Shown here: piece after piece, positions 2,755-5,074 of the stretch
Layout of the letters: every line of letters begins with the position of its first letter
Position numbering within the stretch: the first letter of the stretch is position 1
Virus record (IMG/VR): IMGVR_UViG_3300027852_000046
Span: 1-52,827 of that record
Source of the DNA: a virus
Lineage: Duplodnaviria > Caudoviricetes
Length of the DNA stretch: 52,827 nucleotides
Direction: 5' to 3' (one strand)
Notes under the pieces: model-generated
What the model saw: only the letters and a program-made list of their open reading frames with translations
What the model was told of the DNA's origin: nothing
The model's database searches: none
Program-made: the position numbers and the translations under genes

Positions 2755-2779
2755 TGTTCCGCTTATTACGCTGTTAGGC
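2755..2779 (+). other. attI-like site
   Basis: TGTTCCGCTTATTACGCTG|TTAGGC. Confidence 0.75.
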
Positions 2780-3079
2780 GCTGCACGCTTTAGCCATTTC
2801 GGCCTTACTGCATGGCCTTTCGTGGTCGCAATCCGTACACCGCATCTTTGTGTATTTTCGCGGAACTGTCATAGTTGGTTTATACCTGTGCTCACCACCA
2901 TTTAAACAGTCAGCTTTTGTAGCTTCGTATGAAAAACTAATACTGGTTTTGAATGCAAAAGTTTTCCCACAGTCAGCACACCCCTGTTCGTGTGTTTTAT
3001 CTTCTTCATACCCTTGACCGTCATCGTGACAGATTTCTTGTCCAACCCCGCAATAGGGGCATTCAACATCGTCATACAT
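2774..3079 (-). CDS. Cassette Zn-ribbon protein
   Basis: CPYC, CADC and CTDC motifs. Confidence 0.75.
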   Translation of the reverse strand: MYDDVECPYCGVGQEICHDDGQGYEEDKTHEQGCADCGKTFAFKTSISFSYEATKADCLNGGEHRYKPTMTVPRKYTKMRCTDCDHERPCSKAEMAKACSA

Positions 3080-3102
3080 TGTTAGTTCTCCTGTCTGTTC
3101 TC

Positions 3103-3166
3103 GCCTAACATGGCGTTTAAAATCCGACTGCCAAAAAGCGGCAGCGGTTTAACTAAAACGTTATGC
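3103..3166 (+). other. attC-like site
   Basis: GCCTAAC...CTGCC AAAAAGC GGCAG...GTTATGC. Confidence 0.9.
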
Positions 3167-3343
3167 GCCCAATACTTTTAATATTGCGTCAACCTTCTTT
3201 CTTGTGAACATTTTTTTAATTTGAGCGTCCGTATATTGCTCCTTCAGCATTAAAAACATAGTTCCTATTGTCGCTGCTGCAAAACCTTTATCGCTCATAA
3301 CAAGTCGCCCAACCTGACTCGTCTCTTCATTCGCTTTGCTCAT
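3161..3343 (-). CDS. Cassette hypothetical protein with attC-encoded leader MSKANEETSQVGRLV
   Basis: GAGGAG and ATG lie inside attC 3295-3376. Confidence 0.65.
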   Translation of the reverse strand: MSKANEETSQVGRLVMSDKGFAAATIGTMFLMLKEQYTDAQIKKMFTRKKVDAILKVLGA

Positions 3344-3376
3344 TTCGCTCCTCACTGGTTAGCTTTGGCGTTAGCC
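3295..3376 (+). other. attC-like site, 82-bp leader-encoding family
   Basis: TCATAAC...GTTAGCC; near-identical to 12547-12628. Confidence 0.85.
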
Positions 3377-3405
3377 GGACAAAACTTACCTGCCCGGCAT
3401 TTAGA

Positions 3406-3597
3406 CTACTTACCTACATTTAGCCAGCCTGTTACTGCTCCAACTGGCGGCAGCAGTCCTACAACATGAACAACCTCCGCTTTATATGGCGATTTAAAAT
3501 CACATTCAGATAGTTTTACGATGTTTTTTACCCATCCAACCCCTATAACTAATACTATTATAATTCCTATGTAAAACGGTACTCTCATATTTATCAC
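3406..3597 (-). CDS. Cassette small membrane protein
   Basis: N-terminal TM segment; GWVKNIVKL..CDF..PYKAEV pattern. Confidence 0.7.
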   Translation of the reverse strand: MINMRVPFYIGIIIVLVIGVGWVKNIVKLSECDFKSPYKAEVVHVVGLLPPVGAVTGWLNVGK

Positions 3598-3613
3598 CTT
3601 CTAGTTAAGCAGC

Positions 3614-3684
3614 GGCTAACAAGTAAATCAAGCTGACAAACCCGCCGCTGCGCTCTGGTTTGCCGCTTATCTTAGGCGTTATGC
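3614..3684 (+). other. attC-like site
   Basis: GGCTAAC..ATCAAGCTGACAAACC..GGTTTGCCGCTTAT..GCGTTATGC with the canonical extra C and A in the left arm. Confidence 0.9.
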
Positions 3685-3861
3685 GTAAAAAAAGTTATGG
3701 TCATCTTCATTGCCTTTACCTATAGCAGCCCATCCAATGCATTCTTCATAATCACATCTTGTGCATGGCAGAGTAGTAAAATGTTTATCATAAAACTCTC
3801 TTGTTATTTTGCTTCTTTCAATGTAGCCGCGCTCAAATTCTTCTTTTGTTTCTGTCTCCAT
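3679..3861 (-). CDS. Cassette hypothetical protein (Cys-containing)
   Basis: GGAGG RBS; METETKEEFERGY... Confidence 0.7.
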   Translation of the reverse strand: METETKEEFERGYIERSKITREFYDKHFTTLPCTRCDYEECIGWAAIGKGNEDDHNFFYA

Positions 3862-3875
3862 ACTGCCTCCAAAAA

Positions 3876-3936
3876 ACATAACAAGGTTTATCAAGCCGAC
3901 TCGCTGACGCTCACGGATTATTAACGGGCGTTAGTT
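3876..3936 (+). other. attC-like site
   Basis: ACATAAC..ATCAAGCCGAC..CGGATTAT..GCGTTAGTT. Confidence 0.85.
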
Positions 3937-4161
3937 GCATGCGCTCACTGTGCTGTCGGCATTGAATTTCACGCTCATGTAGCCATAGCCAGCGTAGCCT
4001 AGCTGTCCTTTAAAAAATAAATATCTAACACCGTCAATACATCTCTCATTAATTGCTTCCCCACTATTATCAGCCGTTGGGTCTGGTGTCCCACAAGCTA
4101 CAACTAACAAGGCAGTCAAACTGACAGCCAAAAGCATCGCGGTTCTTTTTAATTTATTCAT
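3931..4161 (-). CDS. Cassette lipoprotein
   Basis: MNKLKRTAMLLAVSLTALLVVAC lipobox; ATG lies within attC 4102-4227. Confidence 0.75.
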   Translation of the reverse strand: MNKLKRTAMLLAVSLTALLVVACGTPDPTADNSGEAINERCIDGVRYLFFKGQLGYAGYGYMSVKFNADSTVSACN

Positions 4162-4227
4162 AATATTTACCTTTATCTATTTTAATTTAGTGCGGCTTTT
4201 GGCTGCTGCTTACCTTAAGCGTTATAC
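4102..4227 (+). other. attC-like site, signal-peptide-encoding family
   Basis: AACTAAC..CAGCCAAAAGC..GCTTTTGGCTG..GCGTTATAC. Confidence 0.85.
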
Positions 4228-4386
4228 GCCTGCAATATCTTCTAATATTTCTTCAACAACGTCCCGTTGGTGCTCTTCCATTTCAGTATGGTGAGCTGGC
4301 AAATCACAACCCTCAACGGTATCGTTATGACCGCTGTTGTAACCGATGTTGTATATGTGTGTTATTTGCTCTATTGATAATTCCAT
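4222..4386 (-). CDS. Cassette hypothetical protein, 54 aa (MELSIEQITHIYNIGY...)
   Basis: Hand-translated; AGGTG RBS; fills the cassette. Confidence 0.7.
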   Translation of the reverse strand: MELSIEQITHIYNIGYNSGHNDTVEGCDLPAHHTEMEEHQRDVVEEILEDIAGV

Positions 4387-4411
4387 AAATCACCTAAAGT
4401 ATGTTTGATTC

Positions 4412-4472
4412 GTATAACAAGGCGCTTAAATTCGACTCCGCTACGCTGCGCGATTTAGCTAAAGCGTTAGCT
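4412..4472 (+). other. attC-like site
   Basis: GTATAACAAGGCGCTTAAATTCGAC..CGATTTAGCTAAAGCGTTAGCT. Confidence 0.9.
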
Positions 4473-4661
4473 GGAACTTTCATCAAACAGTCCAAATGCT
4501 GCTAACGCTAAGAATAAGGGCCATGCTACAGCGCATACTTTTGGGAGGCTGTCTAATCTACTTATTTTTTGCGCCCTAATTAGTGTAATTGTCCCTACAC
4601 CAAAAATGCACCAGAGCGCAGTAATAAAAATTGATAAAAATACTAATGTTTCATCGTTCAT
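4467..4661 (-). CDS. Cassette 2-TM membrane protein
   Basis: Two hydrophobic segments. Confidence 0.7.
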   Translation of the reverse strand: MNDETLVFLSIFITALWCIFGVGTITLIRAQKISRLDSLPKVCAVAWPLFLALAAFGLFDESSS

Positions 4662-4672
4662 CCTAGCCTCCC

Positions 4673-4734
4673 AGCTAACAAGTTAGTCAATCGGACTGGC
4701 AAAAGCGCCAGCCGTTTACAATCGGGTGTTATGT
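4673..4734 (+). other. attC-like site
   Basis: AGCTAAC..CGGACTGGC..GCCAGCCG..GTTATGT. Confidence 0.85.
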
Positions 4735-5004
4735 GTCTGTGCCGGTACTTACTCTTATAGCGCAAACATCAATAGGTTTTAGTGTTTTCGCCAACTCTCC
4801 CATAGCTAAGCACGAGGCAGCGTTTGCTTGTGCCTGCGCTAACAATGCCTTAGCCAGAGTTTTCGTGGCCCCGTCTGCCTCAAGGCTCATGTTAACTACA
4901 GTGTCCTTTATTAGAGCCTCTGGTGGTTTGGCCTTCTCATTCTTTAACTCTAACTTTAGAGCTTTTATGGTAACTTCTAATTCATTCTTCGTTGTCATTT
5001 TCAT
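4729..5004 (-). CDS. Cassette hypothetical protein
   Basis: ORF whose stop lies in the core. Confidence 0.65.
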   Translation of the reverse strand: MKMTTKNELEVTIKALKLELKNEKAKPPEALIKDTVVNMSLEADGATKTLAKALLAQAQANAASCLAMGELAKTLKPIDVCAIRVSTGTDT

Positions 5005-5045
5005 TTCTCTGTTGTTTGCCTAACATAGCGCTTAATATTAGACCT

Positions 5046-5074
5046 ATTATATCAATCATTTGCTATAGCGTCAA
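5046..5074 (-). promoter_or_regulatory. Sigma70 promoter reading into array B
   Basis: TTGACG-17 bp-TATAAT on the - strand. Confidence 0.8.

What the first reader, a model, noticed from the sequence alone, without database searches (positions are those of the whole stretch)
2755..5074. All cassette genes are inverted relative to normal integron logic
Seen: attC polarity (TAACAA..TCAA left arm with the extra C and A, TTA-N8-GTT right arm; e.g. 3614-3684, 4412-4472) runs opposite to the genes in all six arrays. The attI-like site is at the transcriptional 3' end, and most stop codons are the complement of the TTA at the crossover core. Known: canonical cassettes are co-oriented with attI/Pc, and the newest cassette is promoter-proximal. 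Inference: here new cassettes would land promoter-distal, be expressed by read-through from phage operons without a Pc, and have the recombinogenic attC bottom strand as the mRNA-like strand. The same cassettes in a host integron would be antisense to Pc and so silent, possibly forming a hidden reservoir of phage genes.
Basis: partly seen in the sequence, partly recalled or inferred. Interest (0 to 1): 0.82.

Follow-up and report, generated by a model that had tools for sequence, protein, structure and literature searches.

The report
Phage gene cassettes in reverse integron orientation
This phage genome carries seven arrays of integron-type gene cassettes whose genes all point the opposite way to those of bacterial integrons, which suggests that phages keep their own separate pool of swappable accessory genes.

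Summary
The window is a whole 52.8-kb phage genome with no integrase. A covariance model built only from its repeats finds 21 attC sites. The same model hits the aadA1 attC of plasmid R100 on the gene's own strand. It also gives 39 of 39 hits pointing away from intI in 11 real chromosomal integrons. In bacterial arrays the cassette ORFs run with the attC top strand (71 with, 12 unclear, 4 against, of 87). In the window and other viral contigs they run against it (0 with, 7 unclear, 29 against, of 36). The cultured Pseudoalteromonas phage H101 shows the same reversal. Each of seven arrays starts, in attC sense, with a conserved 22-nt site that resembles the real attI sites of one marine bacterial family. 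That site lies at the promoter-distal end of the array. Shared cassettes and near-identical relatives lose homology exactly at the G|TTA crossover. This points to site-specific recombination, most likely by a host integron integrase acting in trans. I found a promoter-like site at the upstream end of array 2, and no trace of these genes in bacterial arrays. I found no published report of the reversal.

The parts
2757..2776 (+). attI-like site of array 2 (conserved 20-22 nt ending in GTTA). It is the top-sense start of the array and lies just upstream of the HTH gene 2536-2751(-).
   Evidence: Homology to the near-identical relative L168 ends right after its GTTAGGC. ORF 2774-3079(-) stops in its R box.
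2774..3079 (-). Cassette ORF, 101 aa, first cassette next to the attI-like site.
   Evidence: phrog_6504, E 1e-6. Its stop codon is the complement of the TTA of the site.
3103..3166 (+). attC site
   Evidence: R2 51.3 bits
3161..3355 (-). Cassette ORF, 64 aa. Its start lies inside the loop of attC 3295-3376.
3295..3376 (+). Long attC (82 nt). The loop holds the ribosome-binding site and start codon of the cassette ORF.
   Evidence: R2 44.7 bits. A near-copy lies at 12547-12628(-).
3406..3597 (-). Cassette ORF, 63 aa
3614..3684 (+). attC site
   Evidence: R2 45.4 bits
3679..3894 (-). Cassette ORF; the likely start is the ATG at 3861 behind GGAGG. Its stop lies in the R' of attC 3614-3684.
3876..3936 (+). 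attC site
   Evidence: R2 63.3 bits
3931..4161 (-). Cassette ORF, 76 aa, lipoprotein-like N-terminus encoded by the L''-R'' arm of attC 4102-4227.
   Evidence: phrog_7772, E 2.2e-5
4102..4227 (+). Long attC (126 nt) with the gene start in its loop
   Evidence: R2 41.7 bits
4222..4386 (-). Cassette ORF, 54 aa
4412..4472 (+). attC site
   Evidence: R2 63.1 bits. Six metagenome contigs diverge from the window right after 4469.
4467..4661 (-). Cassette ORF, 64 aa
4673..4734 (+). attC site
   Evidence: R2 51.8 bits
4729..5004 (-). Cassette ORF, 91 aa, promoter-proximal
5046..5074 (-). Sigma-70-like promoter pointing into array 2, inside a degenerate attC-like stretch (5021-5081).
   Evidence: 11 of 12 matches, TG extension
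214..233 (+). attI-like site of array 1
441..525 (+). attC site, array 1
   Evidence: R2 49.9 bits
738..865 (+). Long attC, array 1
   Evidence: R2 27.5 bits
6750..6769 (+). attI-like site of array 3. The attC-like match at 6970-7046 is weak (11.2 bits).
7952..8036 (-). attC site, array 4
   Evidence: R2 41.2 bits
8247..8375 (-). Long attC, array 4
   Evidence: R2 35.3 bits
8392..8985 (+). Cassette gene: DNA methyltransferase, lying between attC 8247-8375 and the attI-like site.
   Evidence: phrog_757, E 1.5e-57
8983..9002 (-). attI-like site of array 4
12208..12955 (-). Three attC sites of array 5 (12208-12271, 12547-12628, 12897-12955) with cassette ORFs on the + strand.
13152..13171 (-). 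attI-like site of array 5, just upstream of NinG (13176-13772).
   Evidence: Homology to L170 begins at its TAAC.
20359..22217 (-). Six attC sites of array 6 (20359, 20678, 20945, 21353, 21672, 22157) with cassette ORFs on the + strand. One ORF, 21717-22157, is nucleoside 2-deoxyribosyltransferase-like.
   Evidence: PF15891, E 1.8e-11
22408..22426 (-). attI-like site of array 6 (variant with one extra base)
52360..52379 (+). attI-like site of array 7
52377..52710 (+). A whole cassette (ORF 52377-52658 on the - strand plus long attC 52583-52710), shared at 93% identity with relative G010 in a different context.

Best explanation
The window is a complete phage genome with no integrase of its own. 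It carries seven integron-like cassette arrays.

Anatomy. Each array begins, in the sense of the attC top strand, with a conserved 20-22 nt attI-like site ending in GTTA. This is followed by one-gene cassettes, each ending in a roughly 55-130 nt attC hairpin site of the same kind as the aadA attC. Every cassette gene lies on the attC bottom strand. In mRNA sense a cassette therefore reads: attC, ribosome-binding site, ORF, TAA. The stop codon usually sits exactly at the crossover point, and the attI-like site sits at the promoter-distal end, next to the following core gene.

Mechanism (inferred). Cassettes move between arrays and between phages by site-specific exchange at G|TTA. The most likely enzyme is the integron integrase of the infected host acting in trans. 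Because all arrays share the reversed polarity relative to local transcription, any cassette of the phage pool lands in the expressed direction in any array. A normal bacterial cassette would land antisense in a phage array, and a phage cassette would land antisense in a bacterial integron.

A further inference. The reversal also puts the recombinogenic bottom strand on the non-template strand. If replication starts at the skew minimum near 7-8 kb, it also puts that strand on the lagging-strand template in both arms. That is the configuration shown to raise cassette excision in Vibrio cholerae.
For: POLARITY.
- Model R1, built from 6 window sites only, hits the R100 aadA1 attC at 35.4 bits (E 2e-7) on aadA1's own strand, with nothing on the other strand.
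- Model R2 gives 31 of 31 hits pointing away from intI in four integrons whose IntI is over the TIGR02249 cut-off. It gives 8 of 8 in seven further integrons.
- The strand I call bottom folds more stably in 18 of 21 window sites, and in 26 of 31 bacterial control sites. This matches Nivina 2016 (PMC5027507, passages read).

GENE DIRECTION.
- Bacterial arrays: 71 with, 12 unclear, 4 against, of 87 intervals. Viral contigs: 0 with, 7 unclear, 29 against, of 36.
- A further set of viral and metagenome loci gives 15 against, 4 unclear, 1 with, of 20. It partly overlaps the first set.
- Four of 10 cassette ORFs tested match a family over its cut-off or at E <= 1e-3. A separately tested cassette gene is a DNA methyltransferase, E 1.5e-57.

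UNIT OF MOVEMENT.
- Cassette 52377-52704 is 93% identical to one in relative G010. Identity starts at G|TTA behind the attI-like site in the window, but behind an attC in G010. It ends at the cassette's own R'. The mobile unit is therefore attC plus an upstream-facing ORF.
- L168 is 99% identical to the window up to the site at 2757-2779 and unrelated beyond it. L163 has another left flank, the same site and L168's cassette.
- L170 behaves the same way at 13152.
- 526-642 equals 52711-52827 behind two different attCs.

attI LIKENESS.
- The 16 nt before GTTA match the position-defined attI candidates of 11 integrons at 6-11 of 16. Of the 9 sites among 460 GTTA sites in those loci that reach 10 or more, 7 are those candidates.
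- 68 of 101 sampled genomes of that bacterial family encode IntI over the cut-off.

GENERALITY.
- The same arrays occur in an unrelated phage lineage (G006/G007, sharing 5 weak protein hits with the window) and in a GC-richer one (L004).
- In Pseudoalteromonas phage H101, 4 hits lie on + while all 14 annotated CDS are on -.
- Qi et al. 2023 showed that IntI1 recombines two H101 attCs as well as attCaadA7, bottom strand better than top (PMC9892861, section 3.4 read).

NO INTEGRASE IN CIS. No PF00589 or TIGR02249 match in the window or in 4 other array-bearing viral records.
Against: - No enzyme was shown to act here, and the host is unknown.
- The attCs beside intI in the candidate host family are about 100 nt long and match R2 only weakly (21-24 bits).
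- The exact 18-mer of the attI-like site was not found in 401 sampled genomes of that order.
- Several attCs are 77-97% identical between unrelated phages while the adjoining cassette bodies differ from about 9 nt beyond R''. Crossovers at R' alone do not explain this. The phage encodes a RecE-like exonuclease, NinB and NinG, so homologous recombination at the repeats may contribute.
- The presence/absence polymorphism of the whole array-2 block (2539-5094) has ends at gene borders, not at R boxes.
- No cassette homologue was found in 129 bacterial loci.
- The duplication at the right end could be an assembly effect of two population variants.
- The purine excess on the bottom strand (15 of 21 sites) is confounded with coding-strand skew.
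- The attI candidates were picked as the best GTTA within a 60-nt window, which favours the match slightly.
- The replication direction is inferred from GC skew only.
Confidence: 0.7

Rival explanations
1. The repeats descend from attC sites but are now shuffled by the phage's own homologous-recombination genes (RecE-like exonuclease, NinB, NinG). These would use the conserved 55-130 nt repeats as short homology linkers, and no integron integrase is involved.
For: - The phage encodes a RecE-like exonuclease (10849-11484), NinB (1529-2005) and NinG (13176-13772), and no integrase.
- attCs are far better conserved between unrelated phages than the cassette bodies: 77-97% over 60-130 nt.
- The same attC with an embedded gene start is joined to different bodies at 3295 and at 12547.
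Against: - The homology breaks fall at G|TTA, where the two partners share only about 4-8 nt (an attI-like site against an attC arm). That is too little for homologous exchange.
- Extrahelical bases, spacer asymmetry and the strand stability bias are all kept. Simple homology linkers would not need them.
- Same-family attCs of phage H101 are efficient IntI1 substrates (Qi 2023).
Confidence: 0.15
2. The arrays are inactive relics. A piece of a bacterial cassette array was once captured in reverse, and the hairpins are now kept only for an RNA or DNA role such as transcript processing, attenuation or punctuation.
For: - No enzyme is known.
- The hairpins lie in every 5' UTR, and in some the gene start sits in the loop.
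- No RNA run holding this sequence was on hand, so transcript ends could not be looked at.
Against: - There are seven arrays on both transcription arms, always with matching polarity.
- Arrays sit at different places in close relatives G009 and G010.
- Genomes 94-99% identical in the flank differ in the first cassette exactly at the site.
- The terminator-like scan finds no excess: 12 found against 11.8 expected.
Confidence: 0.1
3. The polarity call is wrong. The sites are canonical and the genes run with the attC top strand.
For: attC sites are near-palindromes, so R'' and R' alone do not give a direction. The stop codon in TAAC looks just like the canonical stop in R''.
Against: - 39 of 39 calibration hits point away from intI.
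- The aadA1 attC is hit on the gene's strand.
- Bacterial ORFs run with the model strand in 71 of 87 intervals, viral ORFs in 0 of 36.
- The shared cassette carries its attC on the 5' side of its ORF.
Confidence: 0.03

Closest known systems
[quoted passage not shown] 2023, Front Microbiol, PMC9892861
   Same: Both are attC sites with small cassettes in phages that lack an integrase. Orphan DNA methyltransferases occur among the cargo. Phage H101, one of their three tested phages, carries the same attC family (52.8 and 51.5 bits with R2), and its attCs were recombined by IntI1.
   Different: [quoted passage not shown] Here there are 21 attCs in seven arrays, each with an attI-like site, and every gene is reversed relative to attC polarity. 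The reversal also holds in H101 by GenBank's own annotation. The sections I read (outline, section 3.4, passages found) do not mention it. I could not see their figures or supplements.
Bacterial chromosomal and mobile integrons (IntI, attI, Pc, cassette-attC arrays)
   Same: The order attI-like site then cassette-attC repeats is the same. So are the G|TTA crossover position, the attC architecture (R''/L''/loop/L'/R', two extra bases 7 nt apart as in the aadA type), and one ORF per cassette.
   Different: There is no intI and no Pc beside the attI-like site. The ORFs are on the bottom strand. There are seven platforms per genome. The promoter, where one is seen, is at the far end from the attI-like site.
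Reversed cassettes inside bacterial arrays (toxin-antitoxin cassettes with their own promoter); Richard et al. 2024, Sci Adv, PMC13108822
   Same: The ORF is antisense to the attC top strand. One of the 4 'against' cases in my bacterial control is a PIN plus FitA-like antitoxin pair.
   Different: In bacteria these are a small minority (4 of 87 here) and carry their own promoters. In the phages the reversed form is the rule, and the cassettes look promoterless.
Promoter-early stem-loop (PeSL) modular shuffling in T4-type phages (recalled from memory, not looked up)
   Same: Short repeated stem-loops flank small accessory genes in plastic regions of phage genomes.
   Different: As I recall, PeSLs are promoter-bearing repeats exchanged by homologous recombination. 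The present repeats are attC sites with integron crossover points.

Membership tests
Integron attC recombination site | Inverse core R'' (RYYYAAC) and core R' (GTTRRRY) at the two ends | tested here: met
   The three inner R''-R' pairs (UA, AU, AU) are standard in 16, 15 and 16 of 16 aligned sites; the C-G pair in 15 of 16.
Integron attC recombination site | Imperfect hairpin (L''/L') whose structure is kept while its sequence varies | tested here: met
   78.5% of cells paired against 70.1% in shuffles (0 of 500 reach it). 8 of 16 pairs show changes on both sides. Slid controls give at most 50.7%.
Integron attC recombination site | Extrahelical bases on the L'' arm and an asymmetric central spacer, which give the site its polarity | tested here: met
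   The extra C (or T/A) and the extra A lie in the left arm, 7 nt apart, with spacers of 5 against 6 nt. They align base for base with the R100 aadA1 attC. Nivina 2016 gives G16 and T23 for attCaadA7.
Integron attC recombination site | Bottom strand folds more stably than the top strand | tested here: met
   18 of 21 window sites; 26 of 31 bacterial control sites.
Integron attC recombination site | Recombined by an integron integrase at G|TT of R' | not testable with these tools
   Indirect support only: homology breaks at G|TTA, and same-family attCs of phage H101 were recombined by IntI1 in Qi 2023.
Complete integron | intI gene next to attI | tested here: not met
   No TIGR02249 or PF00589 match in the window, nor PF00589 in 4 other array-bearing viral records.
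Complete integron | Pc promoter at the attI end, reading into co-oriented cassettes | tested here: not met
   Genes read towards the attI-like site. The only strong promoter-like site of array 2 is at the opposite end.
[quoted passage not shown] | Two or more attC sites close together with no integrase nearby | tested here: met
   Arrays hold 1-7 strong sites spaced 130-420 nt apart. Array 3 has only a weak attC-like match (11.2 bits) and array 7 only one strong site, so five of the seven arrays meet this.
attI site | A single site at the top-sense start of the array where the first cassette joins at G|TT, with sequence specific to an integrase lineage | tested here: inconclusive
   Position and break points fit. 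The 16 nt before GTTA match the attI candidates of 11 integrons of one bacterial family at 6-11 of 16, and these candidates rank at the top of 460 GTTA sites. Binding by an integrase was not tested.

The most novel reading that the evidence does not exclude
Phages of several lineages run a 'reverse integron': their own cassette economy that borrows the host's integron integrase. attI-like landing sites are copied to many places in the genome. The reversed cassette polarity would do two things. (a) It keeps the phage pool and the bacterial pool mutually unexpressed if they mix. (b) It puts the recombinogenic strand on the non-template, lagging-template strand, so that cassettes shuffle fast within one infection. 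The cargo of small proteins (an orphan methyltransferase, a weak Lar-like match, a nucleoside deoxyribosyltransferase-like protein, lipoproteins) would be a counter-defence library mirroring the anti-phage 'biobanks' of bacterial integrons.
Probability: 0.35. Interest if true: 0.92.

Novelty: new variant of a known kind. Interest (0 to 1): 0.8.

Why it matters
Integrons are thought of as bacterial devices, and recent work casts chromosomal integrons as stores of anti-phage defence genes. This genome and its relatives show the mirror image. Integrase-less phages carry many attC cassettes and several attI-like sites, all with the gene direction flipped. The pattern holds across at least three phage lineages and in one cultured phage.

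If host integrases act on them, three things follow. Phages exploit a stress-induced bacterial enzyme to reshuffle their accessory genes. The flipped polarity is a simple rule that separates phage and bacterial cassette pools at the level of expression. Programs and surveys that assume co-oriented ORFs will misread phage cassettes.

Pseudoalteromonas phage H101 and its host offer a ready laboratory system to test this.

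Tried and rejected
- Rfam gave no match in the window.
- Megablast of 25 kb against the phage collection gave no match.
- RNAalifold on a plain MAFFT alignment of 11 sites predicted no structure, because the arms were misaligned. I then wrote the structure by hand on a 6-site alignment.
- A rigid hand-made pair-count matcher found only 3 sites, against 0.1 in shuffles. 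It was too strict and I dropped it.
- The search for related loci with the portal protein gave one short distant locus only.
- The intI1 megablast against plasmids was meant to collect more class 1 arrays. I did not use it, because chromosomal integrons gave a better calibration.
- Polaribacter phage P12002L gave no R2 hit at E <= 0.05. Its attCs may be of another type. I did not test phage TJE1.
- PHROGs on L013 ORFs gave nothing, so that contig's 'against' call rests on ORF length only.
- No RNA holder was listed for the sequence. The one DNA run is kept as contigs and may be the window's own source sample.
- In that run, most joints between attCs of different arrays have sides under 30 nt. 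I do not count them as recombination products.
- The spacing 'xAC, 3 nt, GTT' shared with attI1 of R100 is not kept in the variant copies that have one extra base, so I do not lean on it.
- Cassette ORFs gave no hit in the bacterial loci.
- The exact attI-like 18-mer was not found in the 401 genomes searched.
- Supplements of Qi 2023 (their CALIN tables and annotation files) could not be seen. They may bear on whether ORF direction was recorded.
- Literature searches, and passages of the Darracq 2024 preprint, showed no report of reversed phage cassettes.

Full report
WHAT THE WINDOW IS

The window is a whole IMG/VR virus record of 52,827 nt. CheckV rates it 100% complete, and no end repeats were found.

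Genes run leftwards from about 7.1 kb to position 1, and again at the far right end. They run rightwards from about 7.6 kb. GC skew flips at the same place, and the cumulative skew is lowest at 6-8 kb.

Recognisable genes:
- an O-like replication initiator (5903-6313) and a helicase loader (5091-5636)
- NinB (1529-2005), a RecE-like exonuclease (10849-11484) and NinG (13176-13772)
- small and large terminase (17317-19321) and an SU10-type portal (22863-25049)
- capsid and tail genes, and a 2,911-aa protein

The nearest named phages are Vibrio phages, at 34-35% portal identity. There is no integron integrase and no tyrosine recombinase of any kind.

THE REPEATS ARE attC SITES

A covariance model (R1) made from six of the window's repeats, with a hand-written hairpin, found 16 sites. 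A second model (R2) made from those found 21 sites at E <= 1.5e-4. Each site is reported on one strand only.

The hairpin is supported by paired changes. 78.5% of cells are paired against 70.1% in shuffles, and 0 of 500 shuffles reach the observed value. Slid controls give at most 50.7%.

The layout is: TAAC, a 5-nt spacer, a 3-4 bp stem, one extra base, a 6-bp stem, an extra A, a variable loop, and then the return arm with a 6-nt spacer before GTTA. This aligns base for base with the aadA1 attC of plasmid R100.

Some sites are long (82-128 nt). They hold the ribosome-binding site and start codon of the cassette gene in their loop, so that the L''-R'' arm is coding.

WHICH WAY THEY POINT

attC sites are near-palindromes, so I calibrated the direction on real integrons.
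- In R100, R1 hits the aadA1 attC at 35.4 bits on aadA1's own strand.
- In four chromosomal integrons with IntI over the curated cut-off, all 31 R2 hits lie upstream of intI on the opposite strand, which is the canonical arrangement.
- In seven more integrons of another bacterial family, 8 of 8 hits do the same.
- The strand I call bottom folds more stably in 18 of 21 window sites and in 26 of 31 bacterial sites. Nivina et al. 2016 describe this for real attCs (passages).

WHICH WAY THE GENES POINT

For each interval of 90-1,500 nt between two same-strand sites, I compared the longest ORF on each strand. Longer intervals, shorter intervals and intervals between sites on different strands were skipped.

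Bacterial arrays: 71 with the attC top strand, 12 unclear, 4 against, of 87 intervals. These came from all 31 hits plus 67 of the 250 hits. The 67 are the hits of loci L091, L022, L096, L095, L083, L047 and L046, most of which I chose for their many hits.

The window and six other viral loci: 0 with, 7 unclear, 29 against, of 36 intervals.

A later set of viral and metagenome loci: 15 against, 4 unclear, 1 with, of 20 intervals. It partly repeats sequence of the first set, because L151 covers the same DNA as L003.

In the window, 16 of 21 sites have an opposite-strand ORF whose stop codon is the TAA inside R'.

Family matches support these ORFs as genes. Of 10 cassette ORFs scanned, 4 matched. 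One is nucleoside 2-deoxyribosyltransferase-like (PF15891, 44.7 bits against a cut-off of 30). The other three match PHROGs of unknown function. A further cassette gene is a DNA methyltransferase, E 1.5e-57.

One of the four 'against' cases in the bacterial control is a PIN/antitoxin pair. That is the known kind of reversed bacterial cassette (passages).

THE attI-LIKE SITE

A 20-22 nt block ending in GTTA occurs seven times: 214, 2757, 6750 and 52360 on the + strand, and 8983, 13152 and 22408 on the - strand. The copy at 22408 has one extra base.
- It is always the first element of an array in attC sense. In transcription sense it is therefore the last, just before the next core gene.
- The neighbouring cassette ORF always stops in its TAA.
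- The same block ends the arrays of the unrelated phage G007, where it is followed by two or three direct repeats.
- In 7 of 8 metagenome contigs that hold the block, it is followed by same-strand attCs.
- Compared with the sites where the first cassette begins, about 225-262 nt from intI, in 11 integrons of one marine gammaproteobacterial family, the 16 nt before GTTA agree at 6-11 positions. Of the 9 sites among all 460 GTTA sites in those loci that reach 10 or more, 7 are those attI candidates.
- 68 of 101 sampled genomes of that family have IntI over the cut-off.

EVIDENCE THAT CASSETTES MOVE AT THE CANONICAL CROSSOVER

(a) A 328-nt cassette (52377-52704) is 93% identical to one in relative G010. 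Identity begins at G|TTA and ends at the cassette's own R'. On the left, the window has the attI-like site where G010 has an attC arm.

(b) Contig L168 is 99% identical to the window through the core gene and the site at 2757, and unrelated from just after GTTAGGC. L163 combines a different left flank, the same site and L168's cassette.

(c) L170 matches the window from the TAAC of the site at 13152 rightwards and not leftwards.

(d) Positions 526-642 recur without a mismatch at 52711-52827, behind two different attCs. Identity starts in R'. This could also be an assembly effect.

(e) In the one metagenome run that holds the sequence, six contigs leave the window right after 4469, the R' of attC 4412-4472. 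One contig joins 2538 to 5095 and so lacks the whole array-2 block. Relatives G009 and G010 lack that block too, and carry arrays at other places.

In case (a) the unit that moved carries its attC on the 5' side of its ORF. This is an independent confirmation of the reversal.

HOW GENERAL IT IS

- G006/G007 is a complete 39.6-kb phage that shares only 5 weak protein hits with the window. It has 13 sites in three arrays, on both arms, all reversed.
- L004 is a GC-richer phage contig with a tail protein and a RecE-like exonuclease. Its methyltransferase and exonuclease genes are on the - strand and its attCs on the + strand.
- The cultured Pseudoalteromonas phage H101 has four R2 hits on the + strand, in a stretch where all 14 annotated CDS are on the - strand.
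- Qi et al. 2023 tested two H101 attCs. IntI1 inserted them at attI1 as efficiently as attCaadA7, and bottom strands did better than top strands (section 3.4 read). They describe the H101 cassettes as typical and do not mention gene direction. I could not see their figures or supplements.
- None of 4 further array-bearing viral records has a tyrosine recombinase.

MECHANISM

Shown by sequence: the architecture, the polarity, the crossover positions, and the absence of an integrase in cis.

Inferred: a host integron integrase acts in trans on both the attI-like sites and the attCs. New cassettes enter next to the attI-like site, which is promoter-distal.

Expression is by read-through or from a promoter at the far end. 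A strong sigma-70-like site lies at 5074-5046, though promoter-like sites overall are not enriched: 20 found against 35 expected.

Because every array is reversed relative to its own operon, phage cassettes stay expressible wherever they land in phage arrays. Bacterial cassettes would be antisense there, and phage cassettes would be antisense in bacterial integrons.

The reversal also places the bottom strand on the coding strand. If the skew minimum marks the origin, it also places it on the lagging-strand template of both arms. Richard et al. 2024 state that this placement favours attC folding and excision, and that natural chromosomal integrons have the opposite placement (passages).

WHAT DOES NOT FIT

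- attC sequences are shared between unrelated phages at 77-97% identity while the cassette bodies differ from a few bases beyond R''.
- The same attC with an embedded gene start is joined to different bodies at 3295 and 12547.
- Crossovers at R' alone do not explain either point. Exchange at R'', gene conversion, or the phage's own recombination genes may contribute.
- The attCs next to intI in the candidate host family are long and only weakly like the phage's.
- No phage cassette gene was found in 129 bacterial loci.
- The host is unknown.

VERDICT

The exceptions are 'without a Pc', where array 2 has a promoter-like site at its upstream end, and the reservoir idea, which is unsupported.

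The thing is a new variant of a known kind. attC clusters in phages are in print. In four literature searches and the papers I read, I found no report of systematic reversal, of multiple attI-like sites, or of precise cassette exchange among integrase-less phages.

Noticed in passing
window 4102-4227 and 1327-1420: Two paralogous lipoprotein-like genes (80% identical over 93 nt) have their signal-peptide codons written in the L''-R'' arm of a long attC. The recombination site is therefore also coding sequence.
   Followed up: partly
window 2539-5094: The whole array-2 block (promoter-like site, seven strong attC sites and eight cassette ORFs, attI-like site, HTH gene) is missing in relatives G009 and G010, where the flanking core genes abut with a 36-40 bp gap. 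It is also missing in one contig of the same metagenome, at depth 13 against about 77-85. The ends of the block are at gene borders, not at R boxes.
   Followed up: partly
window 526-642 and 52711-52827: The last 117 nt of the record repeat 526-642 without a mismatch, behind a different attC. This is either a cassette present in two arrays or two population variants joined by the assembler. The record has no true terminal repeat.
   Followed up: partly
L151 10555-10620 and 18085-18160 (phage G007): Next to the attI-like site, G007 has two or three direct repeats of a 10-nt unit (CACTTTCCGC). Their position recalls the DR1/DR2 integrase-binding repeats of attI1.
   Followed up: no
window 12898-12964 against L003 2603-2669; window 4413-4473 against L003 2341-2402: attC sites are 95-97% identical between unrelated phages, while the genes on both sides differ. 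attCs seem to be homogenised or exchanged separately from cassette bodies.
   Followed up: partly
window 6997-7587: This looks like a divergent early control region. Strong sigma-70-like sites point left (7025-6997, 7208-7179) and right (7560-7587), at the place where gene direction and GC skew flip.
   Followed up: no
window 8392-8985; L004 5959-6549: Orphan DNA methyltransferases are cassette cargo in two unrelated phages, as Qi 2023 noted for other phage CALINs.
   Followed up: partly
window 41402-50137: A 2,911-aa protein matches only PHROGs of unknown function. G009 has a 44% identical counterpart.
   Followed up: no
L179-L198 (integrons of the family of genome G016): The attI candidates of these chromosomal integrons share the form ATTAAA, one base, TGTTA at a nearly constant 225-245 nt from the intI start. 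Their first attCs are about 100 nt long.
   Followed up: partly
L046 2352-2992: A PIN toxin plus FitA-like antitoxin pair forms a reversed cassette in a bacterial array.
   Followed up: yes
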